64,000 nucleotides of DNA from assembly GCA_023418505.1 (NCBI GenBank), contig JAEZZR010000002.1, positions 48,585 to 112,584 of the forward strand, in the 5' to 3' direction. Below are positions 3,884 through 63,907 of the stretch, piece after piece. Origin of the DNA: Actinomycetes bacterium (lineage in GTDB: Bacteria; Actinomycetota; Actinomycetes; Mycobacteriales; Mycobacteriaceae). The notes beneath the pieces were generated by a model that did no database searches, was not told where the DNA came from, and saw only the letters and a program-made list of their open reading frames with translations. Position 1 is the first letter of the stretch; each line of letters starts with the position of its first letter. A program made the translations under genes and the position numbers.

Positions 3884-5677
3884 CTAGCCTTCGAGCTGCT
3901 CGCCTAGCTCGAGCCATTCCATTTCTAGCTCTTCCCGTTGCTGGCGCACCTCATTCAGTTCGCGATCCAACCGAGCTAGTTTTTCGGTATCGATTCCCGC
4001 TGGATCGGCACTGGCCTCGGCTAGCTGCTGCTCAAGCTTGGCTTCATTATCAGAAAGCTTGGTCATCTTTCGCTCAAGGGCATTCATCTGTTTGCGCAAA
4101 GCATGCGCCTGCTGGTTCGAAGTCGCCACTACGGCTGACGCTTTTGTCGCTTGCCCGCTGCCTTCAGCACGTGCAGCCAATTCCGCCCGGCGCTGCAGGT
4201 ACTGCTCGATTCCACCTGGCAGATTGGTAATCTTTCCATCGCCGAATAGCGCCCAAGTACTGTCACAGATTCGCTCGATCAGGTAGCGGTCGTGGCTAAT
4301 CACCACCAACGTTCCCGCCCAAGAATCCAGCAGATCTTCTAGCTCCTGCAGCGTGTCGATATCTAAATCGTTTGTTGGCTCGTCGAGAAGCAAGAAATTC
4401 GGCTCACTCATCAACACGCGGGTCAGTTGCAAGCGACGTCGCTCGCCGCCGGAAAGATCCCCCACCGGAGTGCGCTGACGCTTCGGGCTAAATCCCAGAC
4501 GCTCCGCCAACTGCGAGGCACTAATCTGCTTATCGCCCACGGTGATGTAGCTGGCGATATCCTCGATCGCATTGATCACTCGGGTATCGGTGGGCAGATC
4601 ATCGAGCTCCTGGCGCAGCCAACCCTGCTGCACGGTTTTGCCCTCAATGCGGCGGCCACTTTGCAGCGGATAGGTTCCCGCCAGGGCAGACAGCAATGTG
4701 GTCTTGCCAGAGCCATTCACACCGACCAAACCGATACGCTCGCCAGGCCCAAGGCGCCACGTTTGCTGATCAACCAGGATGTTGCCGGCTGGATCGGCGA
4801 TGGTGGCGTCTTCGAGCTCTACGACCACTTTGCCCTGGCGTCGTTTAGCAAAAGCCAACAACTCCACGCTATCGCGCGGGCTTGGCACGTTGGCGATGAG
4901 TGCCTCGGCGGCCTCGATGCGATACCGCGGCTTCGACGTCCGCGCCGGCGCACCGCGACGCAACCACGCCAACTCCTTGCGCGCGAGATTCTGCCGGCGT
5001 TGCTCTGCCGCATCCGCCTGGCGCGCCCGCTCCGCCCGTGCGAACGTCCAATCGTTGTAGCCGCCGTCGTACATATCCACGGCGCCGTCATGCACTTCCC
5101 ACGTACGCGTTGCCACCGTATCTAAAAACCAACGATCGTGGGTGACCACCACCAGAGCTGCTTTACGACGGATCAAATGCTCGGCCAACCACTGCACACC
5201 TTCAATGTCGAGGTGGTTGGTGGGCTCGTCCAGAATCAATAGGTCGAGGTCTTTGACCAGTGCAGCGGCCAGATTCACGCGGCGGCGTTCCCCACCAGAG
5301 AGTCCACCCAGCTGGCTATCCATACCTAGCTCGGTGACACCAAGGCCACCCAACACTTCGCGAATGCGGCTATTGCCTGCCCACTCGTGTTCGGCAACAC
5401 CCAGCGGGGCGACGACGACGTCGTAGATGGTGGCGGTGTCGTCGAAATCTGCGGCTTGCGCGACGTAGGCCATTGCGAGATCCCCAGTACGCGCGACGCG
5501 TCCTTCGTCGGGTGGCTCTAAACCCGCCAAAATCTTCAACAGCGTTGATTTACCACCGCCATTAAGACCTACCACCCCGATCCGATCGCCAGTTTGGATT
5601 CCTAGACTGACCTGGTCTAACAGGACTTTCAACCCAAACGACTTCGAGATATTTTCGCAATTGATTAAATTCGCCAT
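3884..5677 (-). CDS. ABC-F family ATPase (Uup-like, two ABC domains, no TM domain)
   Basis: 597 aa. Two Walker A motifs (GLNGGGKST, GVNGSGKTT), two LSGGERRR signatures and a C-terminal coiled-coil tail. Confidence 0.9.
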   Translation of the reverse strand: MANLINCENISKSFGLKVLLDQVSLGIQTGDRIGVVGLNGGGKSTLLKILAGLEPPDEGRVARTGDLAMAYVAQAADFDDTATIYDVVVAPLGVAEHEWAGNSRIREVLGGLGVTELGMDSQLGGLSGGERRRVNLAAALVKDLDLLILDEPTNHLDIEGVQWLAEHLIRRKAALVVVTHDRWFLDTVATRTWEVHDGAVDMYDGGYNDWTFARAERARQADAAEQRRQNLARKELAWLRRGAPARTSKPRYRIEAAEALIANVPSPRDSVELLAFAKRRQGKVVVELEDATIADPAGNILVDQQTWRLGPGERIGLVGVNGSGKTTLLSALAGTYPLQSGRRIEGKTVQQGWLRQELDDLPTDTRVINAIEDIASYITVGDKQISASQLAERLGFSPKRQRTPVGDLSGGERRRLQLTRVLMSEPNFLLLDEPTNDLDIDTLQELEDLLDSWAGTLVVISHDRYLIERICDSTWALFGDGKITNLPGGIEQYLQRRAELAARAEGSGQATKASAVVATSNQQAHALRKQMNALERKMTKLSDNEAKLEQQLAEASADPAGIDTEKLARLDRELNEVRQQREELEMEWLELGEQLEG

Positions 5678-5684
5678 GACGTGA

Positions 5685-6770
5685 TTAGTCTGCCACAGTT
5701 ACGTGAGCTCCGGTACGCACACTGTGCACCATCCGCACCTGGCTGACATTGCCAAATGTGGCGGCATCAGTGATGAAATCCACGGCATCTTCCTTGTTGC
5801 CATCGGAGAACAAATACAGCAATCCCGGCCCCGTCCAATTCACTACTCCGTAGGCAGGCGCGCGCAGACTGCGGTACGGATTGCTTTGCGACGGGCGCTG
5901 CGCCAAGGTGGATCCAGTTTGCGGCGCTACTTCGATCTGGTTTTGCTGGGCGTCTCGGCGTCGGGAGTAAAACTGAACCGTTTCGCTGAGCAATGACTGC
6001 TGCACATCGCGCATTATCGGCCGGGCCTTAATTACTTCCGGTTGCATGGCGTTGACGAAGTTGCTGCCGACGGCATCCGCATCCCCACCGGCTAATCCTT
6101 GTTGCAACTGGCGCAGACGCGGTGGCTGCTGTGGTTGCTTGGCTTCGAGGGCTTCAAGCAGCAACTCTGGTAGGAAATCTGCTTCTGTTTTCTCTGGCTC
6201 ATCCGTTTCGGTATCAACAAACCGCAGCCAGGAGGACGCCACCGACACCAACACCCATTGCAACTGTTCACGTGAAAGCATTTGGGCGAAGTCCGCTACG
6301 AAAGCAGCGCCGGATTCTTCGCTGCTGTCATCGCTGCTGTCTTCCTTGAGCTGGAACCGCACGATAGTGGCACCACCGCACATGCTTGCTGGCGCTAACG
6401 GATCGAACGTAGCTAGATCGCTTTCGCCGTCGTCAAGCGCAAACGCCAATGCTGCCAAGGTAGCTGCCGTCCGCCCAAACCCAACTGGTACTTGCTTATC
6501 GTGAATCACGATCTTCACAGGGATTTGCGCTAAACCCCCGAAAATGTCTCGCAGATAAGCCCCTACTGGCGCTGCCGCGTACGCCAAATCCGACCACTCG
6601 GTGCGTCCGGGCAGGAGCTGGACCGTAACAAAAGCAGAAATAGTCTGAGCCACCGCAACTTGACCATCAAAATAGGGCACTACCACGCCGGGAGCGGAAA
6701 AAGAGCCAAAAGAAATCCCGGGATTTTCAGCCGGATTTGCACTTTTGAAGCTAGACATGTTCTCTCCCAA
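5685..6770 (-). CDS. Divergent GHMP-kinase/IspE-like protein at the canonical ispE position (downstream of rsmA)
   Basis: 361 aa. Alignable by eye to mycobacterial IspE along its whole length (PVKIVIHDKQVPVGFGRTAATLAALAFAL; QWVLVSVAS; NWTGPGLLYLF...VRMVHSVRTGAHV). The N-terminal Lys motif and the Gly/Ser-rich phosphate loop appear lost. See finding. Confidence 0.55.
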   Translation of the reverse strand: MGENMSSFKSANPAENPGISFGSFSAPGVVVPYFDGQVAVAQTISAFVTVQLLPGRTEWSDLAYAAAPVGAYLRDIFGGLAQIPVKIVIHDKQVPVGFGRTAATLAALAFALDDGESDLATFDPLAPASMCGGATIVRFQLKEDSSDDSSEESGAAFVADFAQMLSREQLQWVLVSVASSWLRFVDTETDEPEKTEADFLPELLLEALEAKQPQQPPRLRQLQQGLAGGDADAVGSNFVNAMQPEVIKARPIMRDVQQSLLSETVQFYSRRRDAQQNQIEVAPQTGSTLAQRPSQSNPYRSLRAPAYGVVNWTGPGLLYLFSDGNKEDAVDFITDAATFGNVSQVRMVHSVRTGAHVTVAD

Positions 6771-7904: not shown

Positions 7905-9064
<1,160 letters not shown>

Positions 9065-9107: not shown

Positions 9108-9941
9108 TTAGGGCAGCTGAACACCATAAATTCGACAAGCATTATCAACAAGCTGCTGTGCCATTTCTGCTGGTTCCATGCCACGGGCTTCCGCCATGGT
9201 GCGCACTTGCCAGCCAATGTAAGTCGGTTCGTTGCGGGTGCCACGGTAGGGCTCGGGCGTCATATAAGGCGCATCGGTTTCTACCAGCAGATTCTCTAGT
9301 GGCGCATCGGCTACTGCCTGCCGCAAATCATCGTTGCGCTTAAACGTCACATTGCCGGTGAAGCTCAAGATATAACCACGGTCAATCGCTTCATGGGCAA
9401 CCTCGAGCGGAGAGGAAAAGCAGTGCAAGATCACTGTGCCTTCGAAATTTTGTAATTGATCTAACAGATCCGCATCGGCCTCACGGTTGTGAATCATCAG
9501 CGGCTTATTCACTGCGCGGGCTAATTCAGCATGCCACTGCATCGCTTCGATCTGCTGCTCGCGGGAGGCCACACCTTCCTTTTTGCCGATCCAGTACCAA
9601 TCCAATCCGGTCTCGCCGATGGCAACCACACGTGGATCTCGAGCCATTTCGCTCAAGCGGGTTTTTGCTTCGTCGTCAAGCTCTCCTGCCCTGGTGGGAT
9701 GGATCGCAGTGGCCGCCCACACACGTGGATCGGCGTGCGCTGCGGCGTAGGCGAGCTCAGTTTCTTCCAAGCCATCGCCAATCGTGCATACACCTACGAC
9801 GCCAGCATCGGCCGCGCGATCGAGCAGCGCCTGCACCTGGTCAGCACTACGCGCACCACACGATGCCAGGTGCGTGTGTGCATCAAATAACGGACCGAAC
9901 TTGGGGGCTGGTTGAGGTTCCGGGCGTTTCTTCTTAGCCAT
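9108..9941 (-). CDS. tatD: TatD family metal-dependent hydrolase/DNase
   Basis: 277 aa. FDAHTHL start motif, then IGETGLDWYW and the VETDAPYMTP motif. Confidence 0.9.
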   Translation of the reverse strand: MAKKKRPEPQPAPKFGPLFDAHTHLASCGARSADQVQALLDRAADAGVVGVCTIGDGLEETELAYAAAHADPRVWAATAIHPTRAGELDDEAKTRLSEMARDPRVVAIGETGLDWYWIGKKEGVASREQQIEAMQWHAELARAVNKPLMIHNREADADLLDQLQNFEGTVILHCFSSPLEVAHEAIDRGYILSFTGNVTFKRNDDLRQAVADAPLENLLVETDAPYMTPEPYRGTRNEPTYIGWQVRTMAEARGMEPAEMAQQLVDNACRIYGVQLP

Positions 9942-10116: not shown

Positions 10117-10839
10117 ATGCTCGACAACAACACCCCACCGAAAAGAGTATCCCGGTGGGAAAAACCCCGTTCCGGCAATTACGGACATAGCAATCCCCAC
10201 GGCAAGAAGACCGGCCCTAAGCCCACGTTTTCCACCGAAGAGGCGGTACAGGCTGCACTAGACGTAGGCATCGATCGCTTTACGCTTGCACAGGTGTCGA
10301 AGCGACTGGGCGTATCTTCGCCATCGCTGTATCGCATCGCGCGCTCGCGTGCCGAGCTGGTAGATAAGTGCATCGCGTACATCGCCGATAGCACGCCCAC
10401 CACCGCATTGGGCAGCAGCTGGCAGGAAGTTTTGCTGCATTTCGCCGAAGAAGCGTGGAAGGTCTACGAAAAGTACCCGGGCATGGATCGCATTGTGATC
10501 AGCCATCCATGCGCCTGCGTGTACTTCCAACCGCATTTGAGCGCCTACGCCGAAGCTATGCAAGCCGGTAATTTCCCGGGTGATGCCGAGCAGCGCGCGT
10601 TTTTGCTGGGCTTTGTTAATGACATCACCGCTGTGACCCACCTAGGCAAGACCGCCTCGGAGCTTAACGACGGCTGCATGATCAGCACCGAAGACGAATT
10701 CAAGAAGTTCGCCATGAAGCACGCCGAACGACGCCGCTTTACACCAGTGCTGGTAGAAAGCCTCTACGAGTCCAACGTTGATGCTTTACGACGTAAAGTG
10801 AACTTCGCTATCGCAGCAATGGAAGCACAGCTGAGCTAG
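10117..10839 (+). CDS. TetR-family-like transcriptional regulator
   Basis: 240 aa. N-terminal HTH resembling TetR_N (FTLAQVSKRLGVSSPSLYRIARSRAELV). The C-terminal domain is not recognisable. Confidence 0.65.
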   Translation: MLDNNTPPKRVSRWEKPRSGNYGHSNPHGKKTGPKPTFSTEEAVQAALDVGIDRFTLAQVSKRLGVSSPSLYRIARSRAELVDKCIAYIADSTPTTALGSSWQEVLLHFAEEAWKVYEKYPGMDRIVISHPCACVYFQPHLSAYAEAMQAGNFPGDAEQRAFLLGFVNDITAVTHLGKTASELNDGCMISTEDEFKKFAMKHAERRRFTPVLVESLYESNVDALRRKVNFAIAAMEAQLS

Positions 10840-10891: not shown

Positions 10892-12727
10892 TTACTTCTG
10901 CACCGGCGCCCATTCGGGGCCGGTCTCTGCGAGCTCTGGATCGAGCTTGCTAAACAGTGGCTTTGGCTTAGCCAGTGGGGTGCCAGGTTTCATTTCCCAG
11001 CGTGCCCATGAAGCTAACTGATCGGCGTAATCACCCATGATTACCGGGTAGCTACGTCCTTGTTCTGGCAACCCGGTACCTACTGGTGCCACTGGCATAT
11101 CATCGGCCACTTCGTGGATCTGTGGCATCGCTGCCCAGGTGCCTTCGCCGCCTAAGGTTTCGAAGACCTTCTGTGCACTTTCTGGCAGGTACGGAGTGAG
11201 CATCACATTGCAGTCGCTGACTACCTGCAGCGCAGTCCACAACACAGTAGCCAGGCGCTCACGCTGTGATTCATCCTTTGCCAGCTTCCATGGCTCTTGA
11301 GCTGCAATATAGGCATTGGCCTCGCCAACCACATGCATAATCGCCACAATGCCTGCACGGAACTTCGAAGCGGCGATAGCCTGACCGGCAGTTTCGAACG
11401 TTTGCTCGGCGAGGTCGAGCAAACGTTTATCGTCGTCAAGCAACTGCCCTGGTTGTGGTACCTCAGAGAAATTCTTAAACGCCATCGACACTGTGCGATT
11501 CACCAAGTTGCCCCAGCCGTTGGCGAGCTCGTTATTAATGCGGCGGACGAACTCATCCCACGTGAAATCGGTGTCCTGGTTTTCCGGACCGGCCACAGCG
11601 ATGAAATACCGCAGCGGATCGGCGCCGAAATCCTTCAGGAAGTCCTTCACGTAGATCACCACGCCCTTGGACGAAGAGAACTTCGAACCAGACATGGTGA
11701 GGTATTCGGAAGAGACAACCTCGGTAGGCAATTGGAGCTCACCCAATTCGCCCCCATTACCACCCTTAGAGCCCTGGCCGGAGTACCCCAGCAGCTCTGC
11801 TGGCCAGATCTGAGAGTGGAAGGTGATGTTGTCTTTGCCCATGAAGTAGTAGGACAGCGCATCTTCGCTATTCCACCACTTCCGCCAGGCATCTGGCTGC
11901 CCGGTGCGATACGCCCACTCAATCGAGGCGGACAGATAGCCAACTACGGCGTCGAACCACACGTAAAGCTTCTTGGCATTGTTATCTGCCCAGCCGTCCA
12001 GTGGAATTGGCACACCCCAGTCGATGTCGCGGGACATCGCACGCGGACGGATATCCTCCAGCAGATTCAGGGAGAACTTCAGCACGTTCGGGCGCCAGTC
12101 TTGCCGCTGCTGGAGCCATTCGGACAGTGCTTCGGCGAGTGCTGGCAGATCCAACAAGAAGTGTTCGGTTTCGATGAACTGTGGGGTCTCGCCATTGATC
12201 TTCGATTCTGGATCGATCAGATCGGCTGGATCTAGCTGGTTACCGCAGTTATCGCACTGGTCACCGCGTGCACCGGAGGCGCCACAAATCGGACAGGTGC
12301 CTTCGATGTAACGATCCGGCAAGGTACGGCCAGTCGAAGGCGAGATCGCACCCATTGTGGTTTGACGCACCATGTAGCCATTGTCGTAGAGGCCACGAAA
12401 CAGCTCTTGCACCACGGCGTAGTGGTTGCGGGTAGTGGTGCGGGTGAAAATGTCGTAAGACAGCCCCAGACCTGCTAGATCCTGCACAATTTGGCGGTTG
12501 TAACGGTCGGCCAGCTCAGTGACGCTAACCCCTTCCTTTTCCGCCTGGACTAGCAGCGGTGTGCCGTGCTCGTCGGTGCCCGAAATCATCAATACTTCGT
12601 TGCCACGCATTCGGTGGTACCTGGCGAAAACATCGGAAGGAACACCAAAGCCTGCGACATGTCCGATGTGACGCGGACCGTTCGCATAAGGCCAAGCAAC
12701 TGCAGTAAGGATTCGAGACATAACCAA
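10892..12727 (-). CDS. metG: Methionine--tRNA ligase
   Basis: 611 aa. HIGH-type motif ([12 protein letters not shown]), KMSKS-type motif ([10 protein letters not shown]) and a Zn knuckle CPICG...CDNCG. Confidence 0.97.
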
Positions 12728-15837: not shown

Positions 15838-15875
15838 CGGAGTTTTCCTTTATTTACTTAGGGTTAGAGGGATAT

Positions 15876-20241: not shown

Positions 20242-20263
20242 TCGCTACCGGGGTGAGGTTCGC

Positions 20264-21058: not shown

Positions 21059-21463
21059 TCAGCTGGAAAATACACGATCCAAGCTAAACCGCCCCGAGCC
21101 AAAGACCGCCACCATCAGCAAACCACCGATCAGCGCGAGCACAAGTTCAGCACCATTGTCACGCACAAACAAGCCGTTACCAAGATGCACTGCCCACCAG
21201 GCACCCAGCATCTGAATGATGAAAATACCGGCCACAGCAGGTGCCAGCAGGCCTACGATCAGCAGTGCGCCACCGATAAGCTCTAAAAGTGCGACCAACC
21301 AAACCGTCAGCTCTGCTTGGGGGATTCCGCTTGCGACGAAATAGCCCGTCGTCTTATCGACGCCGGTCAGAAATAGCTTGTCCCATCCATGTGCCACGAA
21401 GATGACGCCAAGGATCAATCGCAGAACAAGCAAAGCTCCATCACGTACACCTGGGCGATCCAT
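21059..21463 (-). CDS. DoxX family membrane protein
   Basis: 134 aa, four TM segments. LLVLRLILGVIFVAHGWDKL is typical of DoxX. Confidence 0.8.
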   Translation of the reverse strand: MDRPGVRDGALLVLRLILGVIFVAHGWDKLFLTGVDKTTGYFVASGIPQAELTVWLVALLELIGGALLIVGLLAPAVAGIFIIQMLGAWWAVHLGNGLFVRDNGAELVLALIGGLLMVAVFGSGRFSLDRVFSS

Positions 21464-57045: not shown

Positions 57046-59622
57046 TTACTGCTTTACGTGCTGTTCTGATTGCTGCTCTGACTGTTGCTCTGGCGAAGTT
57101 CGGCGTTTGCCGATCTGCCACACAATTTCAATCACTGCAGCGGCGACAGCCCCGGTAGCAAGCGACGCTGCCAACAGCCCATTAGAGACTGGATATAGCT
57201 TGACCAGTTCGGCCAGCACTGGCACCGAGAACAACACCACATACGCGGCAGCAGAGACTGCTAGCAACGCTATCTTCCAAGGCTCATACGGCCGAGCTAC
57301 CACCACCAGCACCCAAAATGCCGCGACAATCAAAACAATCAACGTTGCCGTGGAGGCCTCGCCCACCACTGCTTCATCGGCTTGCGGGCCGGGATTAACT
57401 TGGAGCCAGAACAAGAACGTCGCCAAGCCAATAATGAAACCCGACGGTGCGGCCAAACGGAAGACCCTGCGAACGAAACCACTGCGCGCGCGTTCGTGAT
57501 TCGGCGCCAAGGAGAGCACAAATGCCGGGATACCGATAGTGAACCAGCCAGTGATGGTGACGTGGATCGGCTGGAATGGGTACGTCATGCCCAGGATGCC
57601 TACCAGCAGCGCGAGCGTGATCGAATAGATCGTCTTGGTAAGGAAGAGGTTCGCGACGCGTTCGATGTTGCCGATCACCCGACGACCTTCGCCGACGACG
57701 GCTGGCATAACTGCGAATTTGTCGTCCAGCAATACCAATTGGGCAACCGAACGAGTAGCCGGAGCACCTGAGCCCATCGCCACGCCGATGTTGGCGTTTT
57801 TGAGTGCGAGGACGTCGTTGACACCATCGCCGGTCATGGCCACGTGGTGCTTGTTTTTCTGCAACGCGGTGACCATCTCTCGTTTTTGCTCGGCGGTCAC
57901 ACGACCGAAAACGGTGCCTTGCTGTACTTGGTTGGCGAACTCATCGGTGCCAACCATGGGCAGTTTACGAGCATCAACTGGATTTTCAGCACCTTCAATG
58001 CCCGCTTGGCGGCCGACGGCACCTACTGCTGCAGCGTTATCTCCGGAGATAACCTTGATCTGCACGTTTTCACGGCCAAAGTAGCGCACGGTATCGGCAG
58101 CATCGGAGCGCACGGTTTCTTTCAGCACTACCAGTGCTAGCGGGTGCAGTTTGAAACCTTGCTCGGCGGCATCAGCAGCTGAGGTGTGTGCGCCGTGGGG
58201 TAGTTGATCGATTTGGGCATCAGTTTCGGCGAGGACCAGGACGCGCACGCCAGAGGCCATGAGCTCGAGAGCACGATCAAGTGCCGGCGTGTTTTCCTCC
58301 ACGAGGACATCCGGTGCACCAAGGACGAACGCGCGGGATGATGTGGCGCTGCTAGAGGCAACGTCTTTGGCGGCCACATCGGACGAATCATCAGCCACAC
58401 TGAAGCCACTCCATTTGCGCTCGGAGGTAAACGCCACATCGGAGGCGACGTCGAAAGGCGTGATGTCGGTGGAGGTGGCGGCCGTATTGGCGGAGCCGTC
58501 GCCAGCTTCACCGTTACCGCTATCCCGCAACCCCGTTGCGATAGCGCGGGCGGTGGCGTTTGGTCGCTCATCTAGCGTCGCCAGCGTCCAGAGCGCGCGA
58601 CGCACCAGTGCCTCGGAATCATCCAGCACCTCAATCGATCCGAGGTACATCGTGTTTTCGGTTAGTGTGCCGGTTTTATCCACGCACATGGTGTCAACGC
58701 GGGCAAGGCCTTCGATTGCGGGCAATTCGTTAACCAGCACACGCTTTTTGCCCAATCGGATCACGCCGAGAGCAAACGCTATCGACGTCATCAGCACCAA
58801 GCCTTCAGGCACCATCGGCGCCAAAGATGCCACCATCGCCAGTAGCGAGTCATTCAGATCATCCCCAGCACGGAATAACTGCGTGTAAATCGTCAGCGCA
58901 CCTACTGGCACCAAGATCCACGAAATCACCCGCAAGATTTCATTAATCCCACGGAATAGCTCTGAATCTGTCAGTGTGAATTTACTAGCTTCGGCCGCCA
59001 GCTTTGCGGCGTAGGCCTGCGCACCTACTTTCGTTGCTTGATAGGTAGCACTACCGGCAATGACGTACGTGCCGGAAAAAACTTCGTCGCCAGCTTGCTT
59101 GAAAACTGGCTCAGACTCGCCGGTCAACGGTGATTCATCGACCTCCAGTCCGGCGACGTCGCGCGCCACACCGTCAACCACAATCTGATCGCCTGCGCCT
59201 ACCTGGATCAGATCATCGACCACAATTTCTTCGCGGTCGATCTCCTTCGCATCAGCGCCATCGCGAATCACCATCGGTTTCGCACGCCCCACGATGGACA
59301 GCTTGTCCAGCGTGCGCTTGGCTCGCAGCTCCTGGATGATGCCAATCGACGAGTTAGCAATAATCAACAGCCCAAACGCGCCGTTTACCCACGAACCGGT
59401 GTACGCAACGATCGCGAACAGCACCGCGAGAATACCGTTAATGCGCGTCACCACGTTGGCGCGAATGATTTGGCCAACGGTTCGTCCCGACGTTGGCGGT
59501 AGATGATTGACCTTTCCAGCTTTACGACGCTCGTCTACCTGGCGCTGGGTTAACCCCTGCGAATCTGTAACGAACGAAGTGCTGGTGGCGGTGTCAGTTT
59601 CAGTGGCGCTCACCCGCTCCAC
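57046..59622 (-). CDS. Cation-translocating P-type ATPase (HAD-IC family, CtpE/CtpF-like)
   Basis: 858 aa. TGESEP, DKTGTLTEN, SGDN and MTGDGVNDVLALK motifs. Ala/Ser/Asp-rich insert in the N domain. Confidence 0.92.
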   Translation of the reverse strand: MERVSATETDTATSTSFVTDSQGLTQRQVDERRKAGKVNHLPPTSGRTVGQIIRANVVTRINGILAVLFAIVAYTGSWVNGAFGLLIIANSSIGIIQELRAKRTLDKLSIVGRAKPMVIRDGADAKEIDREEIVVDDLIQVGAGDQIVVDGVARDVAGLEVDESPLTGESEPVFKQAGDEVFSGTYVIAGSATYQATKVGAQAYAAKLAAEASKFTLTDSELFRGINEILRVISWILVPVGALTIYTQLFRAGDDLNDSLLAMVASLAPMVPEGLVLMTSIAFALGVIRLGKKRVLVNELPAIEGLARVDTMCVDKTGTLTENTMYLGSIEVLDDSEALVRRALWTLATLDERPNATARAIATGLRDSGNGEAGDGSANTAATSTDITPFDVASDVAFTSERKWSGFSVADDSSDVAAKDVASSSATSSRAFVLGAPDVLVEENTPALDRALELMASGVRVLVLAETDAQIDQLPHGAHTSAADAAEQGFKLHPLALVVLKETVRSDAADTVRYFGRENVQIKVISGDNAAAVGAVGRQAGIEGAENPVDARKLPMVGTDEFANQVQQGTVFGRVTAEQKREMVTALQKNKHHVAMTGDGVNDVLALKNANIGVAMGSGAPATRSVAQLVLLDDKFAVMPAVVGEGRRVIGNIERVANLFLTKTIYSITLALLVGILGMTYPFQPIHVTITGWFTIGIPAFVLSLAPNHERARSGFVRRVFRLAAPSGFIIGLATFLFWLQVNPGPQADEAVVGEASTATLIVLIVAAFWVLVVVARPYEPWKIALLAVSAAAYVVLFSVPVLAELVKLYPVSNGLLAASLATGAVAAAVIEIVWQIGKRRTSPEQQSEQQSEQHVKQ

Positions 59623-60032: not shown

Positions 60033-60596
60033 ATGACTTCTCTCATTGAACGCTGGAACACCCGGCGCGCCAACCGGTATCTCAGAAGACGGCAGGCAAC
60101 CCAAAATGCGTTTCCTGGGCTGCGTCGTCACTCCGCACGTCGCAAGCTCTGCCTCGTGCACTACGGCTTGACACTAGCGATGCTGATCGTAGCCATCATC
60201 ATGGCAAGCACAGTGCACAATTCGGAACTGGCTGCCCCCGACACCCCAAACTCTTACATTATTGTAGGCCTCTGGATCTTCATGACCATCTCGATAATGT
60301 TCACCTACGGGTTGCTGAATGTTGTCACCAATTACTTGGGACAAACTCCGGTTAACATTCTGGATGAATATGAAGCTTCCCAGGTGGAGGCGTTCCGCAG
60401 CTTTACCTACCGCATCGCTGACGGTGTGATTTTAATCTTCGTAATCGGATTAACCCTGGTAGGAAGCAAAATTGTCTTAGATTCACCAAACTGGGGTGAG
60501 CTATTGCCCTATCGCCTCGGGCTGATCGGAATTCCAATCTACATCCTTATCTTTTCCTTGCCCACAGTATTGTGCGCTTGGACGATGAAGGACTAA
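60033..60596 (+). CDS. Hypothetical membrane protein (about 4 TM) downstream of the XRE regulator
   Basis: Start trimmed to MTSLIERW (ATG 60033), because the upstream part of ORF 59658..60596 overlaps the XRE gene out of frame. No family recognised. Confidence 0.5.
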   Translation: MTSLIERWNTRRANRYLRRRQATQNAFPGLRRHSARRKLCLVHYGLTLAMLIVAIIMASTVHNSELAAPDTPNSYIIVGLWIFMTISIMFTYGLLNVVTNYLGQTPVNILDEYEASQVEAFRSFTYRIADGVILIFVIGLTLVGSKIVLDSPNWGELLPYRLGLIGIPIYILIFSLPTVLCAWTMKD

Positions 60597-60636: not shown

Positions 60637-61560
60637 ATGGCTTTAGAGTTAAAGAACTTGCGTAAATCCTACGGCGATCTCACAGTATTGCAGGATTTGA
60701 GTTTAACCGTTCGCGCGGGTGAAATTTACGGATTTGTCGGTGCCAACGGTGCCGGTAAAACCACCACGATGCGTATCGCGCTAGGAGTTCTCAGCCGCGA
60801 TGGCGGTACCACCACACTTAACGGGGCGGATATCGACGACACCGTGCGTCGCACGATCGGCTACATGCCCGAAGAACGCGGGCTGTACCCCAACGAAAAA
60901 GTAGCCGACCAGCTGCACTACTTTGCGGGCCTTCATGGATTATCTAAGCAACACGCAGCAGAAAACGTCGACAAGCTGCTAGAAATGCTCGATCTTTCCC
61001 ATCGCCGGGATGACAATCTGAATGCGTTGTCGCTAGGCAATCAGCAACGCGTGCAATTGGCGGCGTCGTTGGTGCATGACCCTGCGGCGTTGATTCTTGA
61101 CGAGCCATTTTCTGGGCTCGATCCAATCGCCGTCGAGGTGATGGCAACCGTACTCCGGCAACGCGCCGAGCAAGGTGTGCCGGTGCTGTTTTCCTCGCAT
61201 CAGCTGGAGCTGGTGGAACGGCTCTGCGATCGGATTGGTATTTTGCGCGATGGTGCACTGATCGCCGAAGGCACGGTGGCCGAGTTGCGCAGCGGGGGCA
61301 ATCAGGTCATCGCACTCACTGTAGAAGGCGCTAGCGACGAATCAAGCACACCCGCCTGGACAGCCAATATTTCCGGAATTACCCAGGTAGAAGCCGATCC
61401 GCACAATGCGCGACGCTACTTGTTTACGGTAGCTGCCGACGCCGCGCCGGATACCGATCAAGCTTTGCTTGCCGCCGCCACCAAGGCGGGCACGGTGCGT
61501 GAGTTCGCACCTATTGCTGTACCTTTGACCAAGCTTTACCAGGAGGTAATTCACTCATGA
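60637..61560 (+). CDS. ABC transporter ATP-binding protein (ABC-2/NatA-like)
   Basis: 307 aa. Walker A GANGAGKTT, signature LSLGNQQR, Walker B LILDEPFSGLD, plus a C-terminal accessory domain. ATGA overlap with the permease gene. Confidence 0.9.
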   Translation: MALELKNLRKSYGDLTVLQDLSLTVRAGEIYGFVGANGAGKTTTMRIALGVLSRDGGTTTLNGADIDDTVRRTIGYMPEERGLYPNEKVADQLHYFAGLHGLSKQHAAENVDKLLEMLDLSHRRDDNLNALSLGNQQRVQLAASLVHDPAALILDEPFSGLDPIAVEVMATVLRQRAEQGVPVLFSSHQLELVERLCDRIGILRDGALIAEGTVAELRSGGNQVIALTVEGASDESSTPAWTANISGITQVEADPHNARRYLFTVAADAAPDTDQALLAAATKAGTVREFAPIAVPLTKLYQEVIHS

Positions 61561-62888: not shown

Positions 62889-62896
62889 GCGCTCAC

Positions 62897-63907
62897 TTAT
62901 CTGCCGGCCAATTTCTGCATGATTTGGTCGGTAGTGCCATAGGAGCGTTGTGCGCCTAACGACGACGCAGCATACCCAGACACCACCGCAGCCACCTGGG
63001 CTGCATCTACTAGCGATAATTCTGCACCAAGGCCGGCCAACAAAGCCGCCAGATAAGCATCCCCGCACCCAGTGGTATCCACAACGGAAACTGCTACTGC
63101 GGGGATTTCTGCTACCTCATAACCCTGCTGTGTCTTTTCCACTACTACAGATCCCGCAGCACCTAGGGTGACTACCAGCTGGCTAATGCCATAAGCGTCC
63201 TCAATCAGCTGGGCGGCATGCTCCCATTGCACTGCATCGGTGTAGTGGCTTGAACCAGCAAGATCAGCCCCGAGGCCTACCAGCAACCGGGCTAATTCGT
63301 GTTCATTCACGATCAGCACATCCACTGCACTAAATAGCTGTTCCGATACCTCTTTAATCGGCGAATAATTCAGCACCACGCTCACACCGCGCTGTTTGGC
63401 CGCCTTGGCAGCGGCTGCCACTGCGTCGGTGGCTACTTCTAGACACAGGCCAACCACAGCTGCTTCGTCGTAAAGCTGCTCTGCTACTTCGGCCACGAAA
63501 TCGGAAGTCACGTGGCTATTAGCGCCGGCAGAGATCACGATCGTGTTTTCCGCTTCGGCATCCACCACGATCAGCGCGGTACCGGTGGGAGTATCCGGGC
63601 GACCAACCAGCGACGTATCTACGCCCGCCTTCTGCAACGAATCGCACAGCAAATCGCCGTGAGCGTCGTTGCCTACGTTGCCGGCAAAACGCACCTGAGC
63701 ACCCAATAGCGCCGCAGCCACCGCCTGGTTCGCCGATTTCCCGCCCGGCAGCTGCGCCAAATCCGATCCGGGAACGGTCTCGCCTGCCTGCGGTAGCTCG
63801 CGCACTACCACCGTGAGATCCACGTTCGCAGACCCCACTACCGCAATCTTCGGAGCTGCTTGTTTAATCTGCTGGAGAAGCGCAGTGCTGTTGGCTGTGG
63901 TTTTCAT
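62897..63907 (-). CDS. rbsK: Ribokinase (PfkB family)
   Basis: 336 aa. GGKSANQAVAAA and the C-terminal DTTGCGDAYLAAL motif. Confidence 0.88.
   Translation of the reverse strand: MKTTANSTALLQQIKQAAPKIAVVGSANVDLTVVVRELPQAGETVPGSDLAQLPGGKSANQAVAAALLGAQVRFAGNVGNDAHGDLLCDSLQKAGVDTSLVGRPDTPTGTALIVVDAEAENTIVISAGANSHVTSDFVAEVAEQLYDEAAVVGLCLEVATDAVAAAAKAAKQRGVSVVLNYSPIKEVSEQLFSAVDVLIVNEHELARLLVGLGADLAGSSHYTDAVQWEHAAQLIEDAYGISQLVVTLGAAGSVVVEKTQQGYEVAEIPAVAVSVVDTTGCGDAYLAALLAGLGAELSLVDAAQVAAVVSGYAASSLGAQRSYGTTDQIMQKLAGR

What the first reader, a model, noticed from the sequence alone, without database searches (positions are those of the whole stretch)
5160..63476. Exact 11-mer GCTTTACGACG recurs 13 times inside unrelated genes, independent of reading frame and strand
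Positions of the first base:
- Plus strand: 5160, 10783, 23923, 26791, 35623, 39324, 39558, 43476, 59519.
- Minus strand (CGTCGTAAAGC as read on plus): 23544, 25197, 54523, 63466.

With an independent-base model at roughly 57% GC, I estimate about 0.03 expected copies on both strands in 64 kb. That estimate is rough and hand-made.

All 13 copies lie in CDSs of unrelated families and fall in three coding contexts:
- Sense, A-L-R-R (GCT TTA CGA CGN): TetR-like, SBP, AEC twice, galU, rimJ-like.
- Sense, L-Y-D (G CTT TAC GAC G): MTHFS, maf, gcvT, rbsK.
- Antisense, R-R-K-A: ABC-F, moeA-like, P-type ATPase.

So the DNA word is conserved, not a peptide. The five other L-R-R tripeptides I checked use CTG/TTG plus CGT/CGC/CGG and never TTA-CGA (maf LLRRT, ABC-F WLRRG, response regulator LLRRA, YLRRK, SLRRS). 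Other R-R-K triplets use AAG rather than AAA.

Some copies share longer identity:
- 39556-39573 and 43474-43491 share an 18-nt identity (CTGCTTTACGACGGGGAA) read in different frames.
- 10780-10793 and the reverse complement of 25197-25212 share TTGATGCTTTACGACG.

Ten of the 13 copies are on the mRNA-sense strand.

A cloud of near variants is also over-represented:
- GCTTGACGACG x7: 6428-, 9671-, 11431-, 21637-, 25510-, 41667-, 30777+.
- GCTTTGCGACG x2: 5883, 46966.
- GCTTACGACG x3: 20262, 31893, 38762-.
- GCTAACGACG x4: 574, 50438, 52263, 52973.

This behaviour resembles genome words such as DNA uptake sequences, Chi or KOPS-like motifs, or an RNA-level recognition or cleavage motif. I know of no described function for this word.
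Basis: seen in the sequence. Interest (0 to 1): 0.85.

Follow-up and report, generated by a model that had tools for sequence, protein, structure and literature searches.

The report
Hyper-abundant DNA word family in Corynebacterium
A short DNA word (GCTT-NN-CGACG, here mostly GCTTTACGACG) is written into almost every place in this Corynebacterium's genes where the protein allows it. Related species carry the same word with their own "dialect", as happens with the DNA-uptake tags of Neisseria and Haemophilus, but no such word has been described for this genus.

Summary
All 13 exact copies are present, against 0.06 expected from dinucleotide shuffles and 0.14 from a synonymous-codon shuffle.

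- **11-mer template:** GCTT-NN-CGACG, 39 copies against about 1 expected.
- **Second family, this species only:** the 10-mer GCT-NN-CGACG, 42 copies against 4-6 expected.
- **Combined density:** one site per 790 bp.

The word acts at the DNA level:
- It occurs in several reading frames, on both strands, and twice outside genes.
- 13 of the 16 sites whose peptide can encode GCTTTACGACG carry it.
- It is built with rare codons and with amino-acid replacements (relatives ILRP, window ALRR).
- The peptides it encodes are enriched (ALRR 7 against 0.8).

The window is an uncultured Corynebacterium. More than 25 other Corynebacterium species are enriched 10-40-fold for the same template with other middle or outer bases. 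Nocardia, Rhodococcus and Amycolatopsis are not. Between species that are 79% identical, 11/12 to 14/15 words are unchanged, against 14-23% of control 11-mers, and the flanks are not conserved.

The word shows no replication polarity, so it is not Chi- or KOPS-like. The closest analogues are DNA uptake sequences and cyanobacterial HIP1. The function is unproven. My best guess is a lineage-specific DNA recognition tag that biases DNA exchange (confidence about 0.35). I found no description of it in the literature.

The parts
5160..5170 (+). 11-mer word, NN=TA (GCTTTACGACG)
   Evidence: antisense of ABC-F, CGT CGT AAA GCA = RRKA
10783..10793 (+). 11-mer word, NN=TA
   Evidence: sense, TetR-like, GCT TTA CGA CGT = ALRR
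23544..23554 (-). 11-mer word, NN=TA
   Evidence: sense, RimJ-like, ALRR; relatives have ILRP/WLRP, so two residues were replaced
23923..23933 (+). 11-mer word, NN=TA
   Evidence: antisense of MoeA, RRKA; close relatives have RRRA
25197..25207 (-). 11-mer word, NN=TA
   Evidence: sense, GalU, ALRR; relatives encode it GCG CTG CGC CGC
26791..26801 (+). 11-mer word, NN=TA
   Evidence: sense, MTHFS, ELYDA
35623..35633 (+). 11-mer word, NN=TA
   Evidence: sense, periplasmic binding protein, codons 2-5, ALRR
39324..39334 (+). 11-mer word, NN=TA
   Evidence: sense, AEC/Mem_trans, ALRR
39558..39568 (+). 11-mer word, NN=TA
   Evidence: sense, AEC/Mem_trans, ALRR
43476..43486 (+). 11-mer word, NN=TA
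   Evidence: sense, Maf, LLYDG
54523..54533 (-). 11-mer word, NN=TA
   Evidence: sense, GcvT, ALYDE
59519..59529 (+). 11-mer word, NN=TA
   Evidence: antisense of P-type ATPase, RRKA
63466..63476 (-). 11-mer word, NN=TA
   Evidence: sense, PfkB-like, QLYDE
1928..1938 (+). 11-mer template, NN=GC
   Evidence: sense, carboxylesterase, ELADD
2389..2399 (-). 11-mer template, NN=AA
   Evidence: antisense, carboxylesterase, ASLS
3110..3120 (+). 11-mer template, NN=AC
   Evidence: sense, cation efflux, MLTDA
4381..4391 (-). 11-mer template, NN=CT
   Evidence: sense, ABC-F, LLLDE
5883..5893 (+). 11-mer template, NN=TG
   Evidence: antisense, unknown 357 aa, PSQS
6428..6438 (-). 11-mer template, NN=GA
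   Evidence: sense, unknown 357 aa, ALDDG
8633..8643 (+). 11-mer template, NN=AA
   Evidence: antisense, RpfB-like, PSLS
9671..9681 (-). 11-mer template, NN=GA
   Evidence: sense, TatD, ELDDE; same word at the orthologous site of L086
10662..10672 (+). 11-mer template, NN=AA
   Evidence: sense, TetR-like, ELNDG
11431..11441 (-). 11-mer template, NN=GA
   Evidence: sense, MetRS, LLDDD; same word at the orthologous site of L086
12952..12962 (+). 11-mer template, NN=CT
   Evidence: sense, chorismate-binding, VLLDD
13153..13163 (+). 11-mer template, NN=GC
   Evidence: sense, chorismate-binding, ELADA
13759..13769 (+). 11-mer template, NN=AT
   Evidence: sense, chorismate-binding, ELIDA
21637..21647 (-). 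11-mer template, NN=GA
   Evidence: sense, GlpR-family, ELDDE
25510..25520 (-). 11-mer template, NN=GA
   Evidence: sense, GalU, LLDDD; motif also at this site in L051
25585..25595 (-). 11-mer template, NN=AT
   Evidence: sense, GalU, ELIDV; close relatives have EVIRV (V>L, R>D)
26125..26135 (+). 11-mer template, NN=AG
   Evidence: sense, MTHFS, RLSDA
30500..30510 (-). 11-mer template, NN=AG
   Evidence: sense, HtrA-like, LLSDG; orthologous site carries the template in L007/L009 (NN=TC) and L011 (NN=AG)
30777..30787 (+). 11-mer template, NN=GA
   Evidence: antisense, HtrA-like, ASSS
40306..40316 (+). 11-mer template, NN=CC
   Evidence: sense, AMP-binding-like, SLPDG
41667..41677 (-). 11-mer template, NN=GA
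   Evidence: sense, PurK, VLDDA
44079..44089 (-). 11-mer template, NN=GC
   Evidence: sense, DUF6815, MLADG
46966..46976 (+). 11-mer template, NN=TG
   Evidence: sense, FGGY kinase, ELCDA
49112..49122 (-). 11-mer template, NN=CA
   Evidence: antisense, multicopper oxidase, RREA
57418..57428 (-). 11-mer template, NN=GG
   Evidence: sense, P-type ATPase, GLAT
60966..60976 (-). 11-mer template, NN=GT
   Evidence: antisense, ABC ATPase, NVDKL
574..583 (+). 10-mer family GCT-NN-CGACG, NN=AA
   Evidence: sense, ABG transporter, ANDD
2772..2781 (+). 10-mer family, NN=CG
   Evidence: sense, carboxylesterase, ARDG
3636..3645 (+). 10-mer family, NN=AT
   Evidence: sense, cation efflux, AIDD
6063..6072 (+). 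10-mer family, NN=GC
   Evidence: antisense, unknown 357 aa
7748..7757 (-). 10-mer family, NN=GA
   Evidence: sense, KsgA, ADDD
14503..14512 (-). 10-mer family, NN=GG
   Evidence: sense, BCCT, LLAT
17753..17762 (+). 10-mer family, NN=CG
   Evidence: antisense, RsmI-like, RREQ
17954..17963 (-). 10-mer family, NN=GC
   Evidence: sense, RsmI-like, AADG
20262..20271 (+). 10-mer family, NN=TA
   Evidence: between genes or at a gene edge (PMT / anti-sigma)
21329..21338 (+). 10-mer family, NN=TG
   Evidence: antisense, DoxX
22356..22365 (+). 10-mer family, NN=TC
   Evidence: antisense, GlpR-family
22666..22675 (-). 10-mer family, NN=GC
   Evidence: sense, GlpR-family, AADD
22762..22771 (+). 10-mer family, NN=TG
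   Evidence: antisense, GlpR-family, RRKP
26171..26180 (+). 10-mer family, NN=CA
   Evidence: sense, MTHFS, AHDD
26186..26195 (+). 10-mer family, NN=GC
   Evidence: sense, MTHFS, AADE
26459..26468 (+). 10-mer family, NN=CT
   Evidence: sense, MTHFS, ALDA
31903..31912 (+). 10-mer family, NN=TA
   Evidence: antisense, histidine kinase, RRKQ
32989..32998 (-). 10-mer family, NN=CG
   Evidence: sense, response regulator, GSRR
33347..33356 (-). 10-mer family, NN=AG
   Evidence: sense, response regulator, ASDG
34432..34441 (-). 10-mer family, NN=AA
   Evidence: intergenic
36873..36882 (-). 10-mer family, NN=AG
   Evidence: antisense, FecCD permease
38154..38163 (+). 10-mer family, NN=GA
   Evidence: sense, ABC ATPase, ADDG
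38200..38209 (-). 10-mer family, NN=TT
   Evidence: antisense, ABC ATPase
38762..38771 (-). 10-mer family, NN=TA
   Evidence: antisense, ABC ATPase
41886..41895 (+). 10-mer family, NN=CA
   Evidence: antisense, PurK, RREL
42684..42693 (-). 10-mer family, NN=AT
   Evidence: sense, unknown 169 aa, AIDG
44611..44620 (+). 10-mer family, NN=TT
   Evidence: antisense, DUF6815
45794..45803 (+). 10-mer family, NN=GC
   Evidence: sense, rhodanese, AADD
46999..47008 (+). 10-mer family, NN=GC
   Evidence: sense, FGGY kinase, MLPT
48716..48725 (+). 10-mer family, NN=AC
   Evidence: sense, multicopper oxidase, ATDA
50438..50447 (+). 10-mer family, NN=AA
   Evidence: sense, multicopper oxidase, ANDD
50565..50574 (-). 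10-mer family, NN=AA
   Evidence: antisense, multicopper oxidase
52263..52272 (+). 10-mer family, NN=AA
   Evidence: antisense, luciferase-like
52973..52982 (+). 10-mer family, NN=AA
   Evidence: sense, unknown 221 aa, ANDG
56368..56377 (-). 10-mer family, NN=GC
   Evidence: sense, SSF symporter, AADA
58497..58506 (-). 10-mer family, NN=GG
   Evidence: sense, P-type ATPase, AGDG
58576..58585 (-). 10-mer family, NN=GG
   Evidence: sense, P-type ATPase, TLAT
58778..58787 (+). 10-mer family, NN=AT
   Evidence: antisense, P-type ATPase
59085..59094 (-). 10-mer family, NN=GG
   Evidence: sense, P-type ATPase, AGDE
60138..60147 (-). 10-mer family, NN=TG
   Evidence: antisense, unknown 187 aa, RRKL
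61330..61339 (+). 10-mer family, NN=AG
   Evidence: sense, ABC ATPase, ASDE
61432..61441 (+). 10-mer family, NN=GC
   Evidence: sense, ABC ATPase, AADA

Best explanation
**Shown.** GCTTTACGACG is the local dialect of a genus-wide Corynebacterium DNA word, GCTT-NN-CGACG.
- The word is created by point substitutions wherever coding allows. These include rare codons and amino-acid replacements.
- Once made, it is held in place by a strong pressure that acts on the double-stranded DNA sequence itself, not on the peptide, the mRNA or the replication strand.
- The preferred middle dinucleotide, and in some lineages an outer base or the spacing, differs between species.

**Inferred.** The word is the recognition tag of a sequence-specific DNA-handling protein whose specificity drifts between lineages. 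It most likely works like a DNA uptake sequence:
1. DNA fragments carrying the tag are preferentially taken up, or otherwise transferred, between cells of the same lineage and recombined.
2. Tag-creating alleles are therefore over-transmitted (molecular drive) and tag-destroying ones are replaced.
3. This saturates the codable sites and doubles as a species barrier.
For: **Enrichment against every null.**
- TA word: 13 copies against 0.06 and 0.14 (codon shuffle).
- 11-mer template: 39 copies against 0.87, 1.3-2.6 (Markov) and 1.26 (codon shuffle).
- 10-mer family: 42 copies against 3.7 and 6.0.
- Only spacings 2 and 3 after GCT are enriched.

**DNA level, not peptide or RNA.**
- Five of the six possible strand and reading-frame combinations are used.
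- 13 of 16 TA-codable sites and 39 of 111 template-codable sites are occupied.
- For TA, sense and antisense sites are equally saturated: 10/12 against 3/4.
- The rare codons TTA and CGA are used.
- Relatives show that the words arose by 3-4 synonymous changes or by residue replacements.
- The encoded peptides are enriched: ALRR 7 against 0.81, RRKA 3 against 0.18. Uptake sequences have the same effect on proteomes (PMC2817400).

**Dialects.** The evidence is.

| Lineage | Preferred form |
|---|---|
| C. amycolatum group | NN = AT, TC, GC |
| C. lactis | NN = GC |
| Corynebacterium sp. H113 | NN = CA |
| C. pelargi, C. tapiri | NN = TT |
| C. durum | NN = AT |
| C. ulceribovis | GCTTNNTGACG |
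| L051 | GCGTNNCGACG |
| Corynebacterium sp. 335C | GCGTGACGACG, 13 against 0.26, mostly intergenic |

Non-Corynebacterium Mycobacteriales have 0-2 copies per 20 kb.

**Maintenance.**
- 11/12 and 14/15 words are identical between species at 79% nucleotide identity.
- The controls are 14% of all 11-mers and 22.5% of 11-mers whose peptide is identical.
- Flanks are at background identity.

**Agreement with known uptake sequences.**
- The size of the enrichment (30-90-fold) matches.
- There is no mismatch cloud (35 against 28-34). In true uptake sequences, over-representation falls 82-92-fold at one mismatch (PMC1939737).
- One orientation is commoner in reading frames, as for uptake sequences (PMC2346458).
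Against: - **No sign of competence.** I found no report that any Corynebacterium is naturally transformable. I could not examine competence or pilus genes of these genomes with the tools at hand.
- **Not enriched in non-coding DNA.** Unlike Neisseria DUS and Haemophilus USS, the window's 11-mer copies are not enriched there: 0 of 39. The composition-adjusted expectation is only about 1.5, so this is weak evidence. There are no terminator inverted pairs in the window.
- **Unprecedented features.** Two spacing classes in one genome, and several co-preferred NN in one genome (AT, TC and GC in C. amycolatum), have no precedent among uptake sequences.
- **Selection explains the same data.** Strong positional conservation is equally expected for a selected chromosomal binding site. 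That is the argument made for HIP1 (PMC5861425).
- **Limited sampling.** All evidence comes from about 20 kb per species, in mostly syntenic regions.
Confidence: 0.35

Rival explanations
1. HIP1-like chromosomal word. The word is the binding or modification site of a resident protein, such as a nucleoid-organising protein or an orphan methyltransferase and its reader. Ordinary natural selection keeps it at high density along the chromosome, and DNA exchange plays no part.
For: - Sites are conserved in place between species far beyond synonymous background, with unconserved flanks. The same argument was used to infer selection on HIP1 (PMC5861425).
- HIP1 is likewise 15-300-fold enriched, occurs inside genes, and has lineage variants.
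- The density, one site per 0.8-1.6 kb, suits a protein that must act everywhere on the chromosome.
Against: - The word is not palindromic, unlike HIP1 and most methylation-linked words.
- Nine specified bases is long for a methyltransferase site.
- Rapid change of preferred bases between close species, with turnover of sites, is odd for a housekeeping architectural protein.
- No candidate protein is known.
- Recent preprints link HIP1 itself to transformation and horizontal transfer (abstracts listed), so this rival may not be distinct from the main explanation.
Confidence: 0.25
2. Non-polar 'self' tag for a DNA-end-processing or defence nuclease/helicase. It would work like Chi does for RecBCD/AddAB, here perhaps for AdnAB or another system. 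DNA carrying the word is spared or channelled into recombination, and DNA lacking it (phage, plasmid) is degraded. Dialects would arise from an arms race.
For: - Lineage-specific specificity changes and the apparent loss or shift of the canonical word in some species (C. ulceribovis, L079) fit an arms race.
- The one Corynebacterium phage examined (BFK20, 43 kb) has a single template copy, which is chance level.
Against: - Known Chi sites are 5-8 nt, only a few-fold enriched and co-oriented with replication (general knowledge).
- Here the word is 57% on the leading strand, against about 93% for Corynebacterium AIMS octamers in the same loci. In the window, the TA word is 9:4 in favour of the lagging strand.
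- The dialect of BFK20's host is unknown, so the phage result is uninterpretable.
Confidence: 0.12
3. Neutral by-product of sequence-biased repair. A sequence-specific mismatch-correcting activity, similar to very-short-patch repair and perhaps tied to a mobile modification system, converts near-matches into the canonical word. The word piles up without having a function of its own.
For: - Such a process is independent of orientation and reading frame.
- Specificity changes between lineages are natural if the enzyme belongs to a fast-evolving modification system.
- It could leave several 'layers' of preferred NN in one genome.
Against: - One-mismatch neighbours are neither depleted nor enriched (35 against 28-34).
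- Most words arose from sequences 3-4 changes away and included amino-acid replacements. A single-mismatch corrector does not explain that easily.
- Known VSP effects on word frequencies are less than 2-fold (general knowledge), against 30-90-fold here.
- Nine specified bases is beyond known repair specificities.
Confidence: 0.1
4. RNA- or translation-level signal, such as a binding site for an RNA-binding protein or small RNA, an RNase site, a pause element, or codon-pair selection in the frame xxG CTT NNC GAC G.
For: - Raw counts favour the mRNA-sense strand: 30:9 for the 11-mer template.
- One reading frame dominates: 23/39 as L-x-D, and 21/42 of the 10-mers as A-x-D.
- In Corynebacterium sp. 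335C, about 10 of 13 copies are in the sense orientation of neighbouring genes.
Against: - The TA word sits in three different coding contexts, and antisense sites are as saturated as sense sites (3/4 against 10/12).
- Half of the 10-mers lie outside the main frame, still about 5-fold above the null.
- The frame bias follows from which peptides can encode the word. The same bias is seen for true uptake sequences (PMC2346458).
Confidence: 0.04
5. Chance, codon usage or an assembly artefact.
For: Most copies use the common peptide pattern L-x-D or A-x-D. The window is a metagenome assembly.
Against: - No shuffle out of 100-1000 reaches the observed counts under dinucleotide, Markov-3/5 or protein-preserving codon shuffles.
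- The same template is enriched in isolate genomes of many species.
- CTT (10% of Leu), TTA (7% of Leu) and CGA (8% of Arg) are minor codons here.
Confidence: 0.01

Closest known systems
DNA uptake sequences (Neisseriaceae DUS and its dialects; Pasteurellaceae USS)
   Same: - A 9-12-bp non-palindromic word.
- Enriched tens- to hundreds-fold on both strands.
- About one copy per 1-2 kb.
- Present inside genes in several reading frames.
- Made by point substitutions at poorly conserved residues.
- Raises the frequency of the peptides it encodes.
- Falls off steeply at one mismatch.
- Related species carry variants ('dialects') of one template (PMC3630211, PMC2817400, PMC1939737).
   Different: - It occurs in an actinobacterial genus with no reported natural transformation.
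- The template has a free or variable central dinucleotide.
- One species has two spacing classes.
- The window shows no excess in non-coding DNA and no terminator inverted pairs.
- The receptor and any uptake bias are untested.
HIP1 (GCGATCGC) of cyanobacteria
   Same: - A hyper-abundant word (15-300-fold).
- Scattered through genes.
- Conserved in place between genomes beyond codon constraints.
- Function long unknown.
- Has lineage variants (PMC5861425, PMC4390886).
   Different: - HIP1 is an 8-bp palindrome containing the sites of known orphan methyltransferases.
- The Corynebacterium word is asymmetric, has 9 specified bases and no known modifying enzyme.
Chi sites (RecBCD/AddAB)
   Same: A short asymmetric word, specific to a lineage, over-represented in the core genome.
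   Different: Chi is 5-8 nt, only a few-fold enriched and co-oriented with replication. This word is 30-90-fold enriched and essentially unpolarised.
KOPS / architecture-imparting sequences (AIMS)
   Same: Genome-wide oligomers read as DNA.
   Different: - AIMS are defined by strand skew.
- Corynebacterium already has its own AIMS, G(A/T/C)GGGGGA and (T/C)GGGGGAG, with 856 leading against 61 lagging copies in C. aurimucosum (PMC2830990).
- Those octamers are about 93% polar in my loci, while the word is 57%.
Dispersed repeats (REP, MITE-like elements)
   Same: Many copies of one short sequence.
   Different: - Flanks are unrelated right up to the word.
- Orthologues align codon for codon without indels at the sites.
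- Copies therefore arise by substitution, not insertion.

Membership tests
DNA uptake sequence (DUS/USS) | A 9-12-bp word, tens- to hundreds-fold over-represented, on both strands | tested here: met
   - TA word: 13 against 0.06-0.14.
- 11-mer template: 39 against 0.9-1.3.
- Strands: 21 plus, 18 minus.
DNA uptake sequence (DUS/USS) | Steep drop of over-representation at one mismatch | tested here: met
   One-mismatch variants: 35 against 28-34 expected. The published drop for DUS/USS is 82-92-fold (PMC1939737).
DNA uptake sequence (DUS/USS) | Arises by point substitution in weakly constrained coding positions and inflates the encoded peptides | tested here: met
   Ortholog comparisons. ALRR 7 against 0.81, RRKA 3 against 0.18, LYD[ADEGV] 5 against 0.95.
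DNA uptake sequence (DUS/USS) | Related species carry dialects of one template | tested here: met
   NN and outer-base variants in more than 25 Corynebacterium species, and absence from other Mycobacteriales.
DNA uptake sequence (DUS/USS) | Excess in non-coding DNA, or inverted pairs in terminators | tested here: inconclusive
   - Window: 0 of 39 11-mers and 2 of 42 10-mers are non-coding. Only about 1.5 are expected at equal fold-enrichment.
- Corynebacterium sp. 335C: about 8 of 13 are intergenic.
- One inverted pair in H113.
DNA uptake sequence (DUS/USS) | Competent cells preferentially take up DNA carrying the word | not testable with these tools
   This needs uptake or transformation competition experiments.
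DNA uptake sequence (DUS/USS) | Competence machinery and a sequence-specific receptor are encoded | not tested
   No competence genes lie in the 82 kb examined. I found no literature on Corynebacterium competence.
Chi | Co-orientation with replication (most copies on the leading strand) | tested here: not met
   163:122 (57%) across 27 loci. The window TA word is 9 lagging to 4 leading. AIMS in the same loci are about 93% polar.
Chi | Attenuates a RecBCD/AddAB/AdnAB-type nuclease | not testable with these tools
   This needs biochemistry or genetics.
KOPS/AIMS | Strong strand skew that switches at dif | tested here: not met
   Corynebacterium AIMS are different octamers (PMC2830990).
HIP1-like iterated word | Hyper-abundance, with sites conserved between genomes beyond codon constraint | tested here: met
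   11/12 and 14/15 words conserved, against 22.5% of peptide-identical control 11-mers.
HIP1-like iterated word | Palindromic word containing the site of a cognate methyltransferase | tested here: not met
   The word is asymmetric: its reverse complement is CGTCGNNAAGC. Methylation could not be tested.
Dispersed repeat / mobile element | Copies share flanking homology or are insertions relative to orthologues | tested here: not met
   Flank information is 0.2 bit or less per position. Orthologous alignments have no gaps.

The most novel reading that the evidence does not exclude
Corynebacterium has a previously unrecognised, sequence-specific system for exchanging DNA between cells of the same lineage. 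It could be cryptic natural transformation, or another transfer route with a sequence-reading component. Its recognition tag is GCTT-NN-CGACG, and its dialects act as species barriers. This would be the first uptake-sequence-type system outside Proteobacteria, in a genus that includes major pathogens, skin and nasal commensals and an industrial workhorse.
Probability: 0.3. Interest if true: 0.92.

Novelty: new variant of a known kind. Interest (0 to 1): 0.86.

Why it matters
- **Scale of the effect.** A word that occupies up to 80% of the sites where it can be encoded, overrides codon preference, changes amino acids and is conserved across species is among the strongest non-coding constraints seen inside bacterial genes. 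Only uptake sequences and HIP1 are comparable.
- **Hidden biology.** Finding one across Corynebacterium points to an unknown sequence-specific DNA-handling system in a genus that includes C. diphtheriae relatives, the C. amycolatum, C. striatum and C. durum commensals and opportunists, and industrial strains.
- **If it is a transfer tag.** It would imply hidden gene exchange and a ready way to improve the genetic tractability of hard-to-transform species: add the right dialect to the donor DNA.
- **Practical uses whatever the function.**
  - The dialects are a compact taxonomic and binning marker for metagenomes.
  - They can flag recently acquired DNA.
  - They are a caution for codon-usage and selection analyses in this genus.

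Tried and rejected
- **Codon usage or peptide artefact: rejected.** The protein-preserving codon shuffles exclude it.
- **Decay cloud of variants: rejected.** One-mismatch variants are at expectation. The variants are template members and a 10-mer family.
- **Coding-specific mechanism: considered, then dropped.** I considered it because 0 of 39 11-mers are intergenic. The AT-richer intergenic DNA has a baseline of only 0.047 copies, so about 1.5 are expected at equal enrichment. Corynebacterium sp. 335C carries its word mostly between genes.
- **'Cold' region at 14-21 kb (0 of 13 codable sites) as foreign DNA: rejected.** The genes (two BCCT transporters, RsmI-like, PMT) are syntenic in relatives. 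Their codable sites are mostly non-preferred NN, so the gap is not significant.
- **Replication polarity: rejected.** Both GC skew and Corynebacterium AIMS show none.
- **Hitch-hiking of flanks between species: none seen**.
- **Strain-level polymorphism: not possible.** The Logan and ENA contigs are 100% identical to the window.
- **Phage and plasmid tests: led nowhere.**
  - No Corynebacterium plasmid turned up with the P-type ATPase query.
  - The prophage-like protein upstream of the window found no viral contig and no Corynebacterium phage.
  - Phage BFK20 has a chance-level count, but its host's dialect is unknown.
- **Literature: nothing found.** Ten searches turned up nothing on these words or on competence in Corynebacterium. 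The exact-string hits were unrelated primers.
- **RNA polymerase pause consensus (G-10 Y-1 G+1):** the 11-mer fits it, but the 10-mer family does not, and antisense copies are just as saturated.

Full report
**1.

- GCTTTACGACG occurs 13 times at exactly the stated coordinates (9 plus, 4 minus). Dinucleotide shuffles give 0.06 copies, with at most 1 in any shuffle.
- It is the most frequent 9-, 10- and 11-mer of the window. It is sharply bounded, and its flanks carry almost no information.
- I built a curated set of 57 genes from the public gene calls of the source contig and the ORF list.
- I then shuffled synonymous codons, keeping every protein sequence and the codon usage. The word is expected 0.14-0.16 times, with at most 3 in 1000 shuffles.
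  - 6 copies as GCT TTA CGA CGN (ALRR). TTA is 7% of Leu codons and CGA is 8% of Arg codons.
  - 4 copies as CTT TAC GAC (LYD).
  - 3 copies antisense, as CGT CGT AAA GCN (RRKA).

**2. The unit is a template, and there is a second family**

- Substituting each position in turn shows that positions 1-4 and 7-11 are fixed. Only positions 5-6 vary.
- GCTT-NN-CGACG occurs 39 times, 21 plus and 18 minus.

| Null for the 11-mer template | Expected copies |
|---|---|
| Dinucleotide shuffle | 0.87 |
| Markov order 3 | 1.3 |
| Markov order 5 | 2.6 |
| Codon shuffle | 1.26 (largest 6) |

- Variants with one mismatch at the nine fixed positions are not enriched: 35 against 28-34.
It has 42 copies, against 3.7 from dinucleotide shuffles and 6.0 from codon shuffles (largest 12).
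- A spacing scan of GCT-Nk-CGACG is enriched only at two values. At k=2 there are 42 copies against 6.0. At k=3 there are 49 against 6.5, and 39 of those have T as the first spacer base. All other spacings are at baseline.
- Together the two families make 81 sites in 64 kb, one per 790 bp. They account for most of the excess of CGACG itself (311 against 206).

**3. The pressure acts on DNA and nearly saturates the codable sites**

- I counted every position where the encoded peptide could carry the word through synonymous codons alone.

| Word | Sites carrying it / codable sites |
|---|---|
| GCTTTACGACG | 13/16 (81%) |
| GCTTGACGACG | 7/16 overall, 6/7 in the L-D-D frame |
| 11-mer template, any NN | 39/111 |
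| 10-mer family | 40/172 |

- For the TA word, sense sites (10/12) and antisense sites (3/4) are equally filled.
- The raw excess of sense copies (30:9) and of one frame (xxG CTT NNC GAC G, 23/39) follows from which peptides can encode the word. The same effect is published for true uptake sequences (PMC2346458).
- The peptides the word encodes are themselves enriched in this proteome: ALRR 7 against 0.81, RRKA 3 against 0.18, LYD[ADEGV] 5 against 0.95.
- No 11-mer copy is intergenic. This is not significant, because the AT-richer 4.8 kb of intergenic DNA has a baseline of 0.047 copies, so about 1.5 are expected at the same fold-enrichment. Two 10-mers are non-coding.

**4. Source organism and relatives**

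- The window is part of a 134-kb metagenome contig (ENA ERZ27269269).
- Its MetRS is 86-88% identical to the MetRS of unnamed Corynebacterium species and 83% identical to that of C. durum. The window is therefore an uncultured Corynebacterium.
- A scan of one genome per species with GalU returned 80 loci of about 20 kb. MetRS homologues gave four more.
- The exact TA word is essentially absent elsewhere. Even so, the top 11-mers of most Corynebacterium loci fit the same template with other middle bases.
- Normalised by codable sites, dialects also touch outer positions:

| Species or locus | Preferred form (sites carrying it / codable sites, or copies) |
|---|---|
| C. amycolatum group | AT 3/3-4/5, TC 4/4, GC 3/5-3/7; TA 0/3 |
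| C. lactis | GC 6/12, TC 3/6 |
| Corynebacterium sp. H113 | CA 3/3 |
| C. pelargi | TT 3/3 |
| C. tapiri | TT 3/5, GT 2/2 |
| C. durum | AT x4 |
| C. ulceribovis | GCTTNNTGACG x9, none canonical |
| MAG L051 | GCGTNNCGACG x13 |
| Corynebacterium sp. 335C (73.5% GC) | GCGTGACGACG x13 against 0.26 expected, about 8 between genes |
| C. propinquum | CTTGCCGACGC |

- Template counts are 5-16 per 20 kb in most Corynebacterium loci (16 against 0.44 expected in L009). They are 0-2 per 20 kb in Nocardia, Rhodococcus, Amycolatopsis, Mycolicibacterium and others.
- The 10-mer family is at baseline in every other species. It is therefore specific to the window lineage.

**5. How the words arise and persist**

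- At orthologous sites:
  - The conserved GalU peptide ALRR is GCG CTG CGC CGC in relatives and GCT TTA CGA CGC here.
  - RimJ-like ILRP/WLRP became ALRR.
  - MoeA RRRA became RRKA.
  - GalU EVIRV became ELIDV, creating GCTTATCGACG.
  - One HtrA site carries the template in four species, with Ser encoded as TCC (C. amycolatum dialect) or as AGC (window and H113).
- There are no indels at these sites, so the copies are made by substitution, not insertion.
- Once made, the words are held in place:
  - Between C. amycolatum DSM 6922 and a MAG at 79% nucleotide identity, 11/12 words are identical. In a second pair, 14/15 are identical.
  - The controls are 14% of all 11-mers and 22.5% of 11-mers whose peptide is unchanged.
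  - Against C. lactis, 5/11 words are identical, compared with 10% of all 11-mers.
  - Identity in the 300 bp on either side is at background (0.72-0.78), while the word itself is at 0.85.
- Two GA words of the window are shared with its closest relative, despite 65-77% nucleotide identity.

**6. What it is not**

- *Not Chi- or KOPS-like.* Corynebacterium genome papers use the octamers G(A/T/C)GGGGGA and (T/C)GGGGGAG as architecture-imparting sequences, with 856 leading against 61 lagging copies in C. aurimucosum (PMC2830990).
  - In the window these octamers are 0:5, so the minus strand is the leading strand.
  - In the loci they are about 93% polar, whereas the word family is 163:122. In the window, the TA word is 9:4 on the lagging strand.
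- *Not a dispersed repeat.* The flanks are unrelated.
- *Not an RNA family.* Rfam finds only a tRNA and the L31 leader.
- *Not a codon artefact.* See the nulls in sections 1 and 2.

**7. Most likely mechanism**

- The combination of features is matched only by DNA uptake sequences and by cyanobacterial HIP1:
  - 9-11 specified bases;
  - 30-90-fold enrichment;
  - both strands;
  - a steep mismatch fall-off;
  - encoded peptides inflated;
  - placement at poorly conserved residues;
  - lineage dialects of one template.
- Published figures for comparison:
  - 1471, 765 and 1892 uptake sequences in three genomes, with 65%, 49% and 34.5% of them in ORFs, and a doubling of the encoded tripeptides (PMC2817400).
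  - An 82-92-fold drop in over-representation at one mismatch (PMC1939737).
  - HIP1 at 15-300-fold enrichment and conserved between genomes (PMC5861425).
- I therefore favour a recognition tag for a sequence-specific DNA-handling protein that biases DNA exchange within a lineage. This is uptake-sequence-like molecular drive, and the dialects would act as barriers.
- *Shown:* DNA-level pressure, near-saturation of codable sites, conservation in place, dialects, and lack of polarity.
- *Inferred:* the existence of a reader protein, and the link to DNA exchange.
- *Against:* there is no reported competence in the genus. Competence genes could not be checked. The window shows no non-coding excess. 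Two spacing classes, and several co-preferred NN in one genome, have no precedent.
- A rough stationary-state estimate, which is my own inference, puts the advantage of a perfect word at about 2Ns = 5-6. It rests on 81% occupancy among roughly 100 synonymous alternatives. That is similar to the value implied by DUS and USS enrichments.

**8. Rivals**

- *A selected chromosomal binding or modification site (HIP1-like), 0.25.* It fits the conservation. It does not naturally explain the fast dialect turnover or the asymmetry.
- *A non-polar nuclease 'self' tag, 0.12.*
- *Biased repair, 0.10.* It is disfavoured by the unperturbed one-mismatch class and by multi-step origins that include residue replacements.
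- *An RNA- or translation-level signal, 0.04.*
- *Chance or artefact, 0.01.*

**9. Caveats**

- Each species is represented by about 20 kb, and most loci are syntenic, so they are not independent samples. Dialect assignments rest on 3-16 copies.
- Gene models outside the window are greedy ORF calls.
- The literature library is open-access only.

**10. Verdict**

The feature is real and strong, and as far as I can find it is undescribed. It is a new variant of the 'hyper-abundant genomic word' kind, in a new phylum and with an unusual bipartite, dialect-bearing architecture. The function is unproven.

Noticed in passing
window 47918-47991 (+): tRNA-Arg (anticodon CCT). The public gene call of a 57-aa ORF at 47861-48034 overlaps it and is probably spurious.
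   Followed up: partly
window 33997-34097 (-): L31-Corynebacteriaceae ribosomal-protein leader (Rfam RF03129, 62.6 bits), upstream of the 87-aa L31 gene at 33722-33985.
   Followed up: no
window, whole length: The Corynebacterium architecture-imparting octamers G(A/T/C)GGGGGA and (T/C)GGGGGAG occur 0 times on the plus strand and 5 times on the minus strand. GC skew is negative throughout. The minus strand is therefore the leading strand of this replichore.
   Followed up: yes
L001 1-1400 (8.5 kb upstream of the window on the same contig): An HTH_36 protein weakly similar to phage replication protein O, next to an excisionase-like HTH_17 gene. This suggests the edge of an integrated element next to UPF0182.
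   Followed up: partly
L011 (Corynebacterium sp. H113) 2429-2453: Two template words face each other: GCTTGACGACG, then AGT, then CGTCGCAAAGC. They form a potential hairpin in a stretch without a long ORF, reminiscent of the DUS inverted pairs in Neisseria terminators. It is the only such pair seen.
   Followed up: no
L089 (Corynebacterium sp. 335C) 4650/4695, 16018/16082, 17074/17134, 8377, 11860, 6491: In this 73.5% GC species the dialect GCGTGACGACG lies mostly between genes. Copies often come in pairs 45-65 bp apart, or next to stop codons and G+C-rich hairpins whose stems reuse the CGACGG part.
   Followed up: partly
L007 (NZ_JVVM01000020.1, labelled C. vitaeruminis strain 1285_CVIT): The locus is 91% identical over 20.8 kb to C. 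amycolatum DSM 6922 (L006), has 58.5% GC and carries the same dialect. The species label of this record looks wrong.
   Followed up: partly
window 14065-17570 (-): Two tandem BCCT-family transporters. Relatives have one to three copies at the same place.
   Followed up: no
L091 (Corynebacterium phage BFK20): The phage carries a 10-copy repeat containing ACCAGTTCCAG and 15 copies of GCTCGACG. It has only one copy of the GCTT-NN-CGACG template.
   Followed up: no
L039 (Rhodococcus sp. NPDC058521); L022 (R. tibetensis): Other locally repeated 11-mers that I did not examine: GATCGGCCGGA x12 in L039, and ACGGCTCCGTG/CCACGGAGCCG x6 in L022. They may be tandem or REP-like repeats.
   Followed up: no
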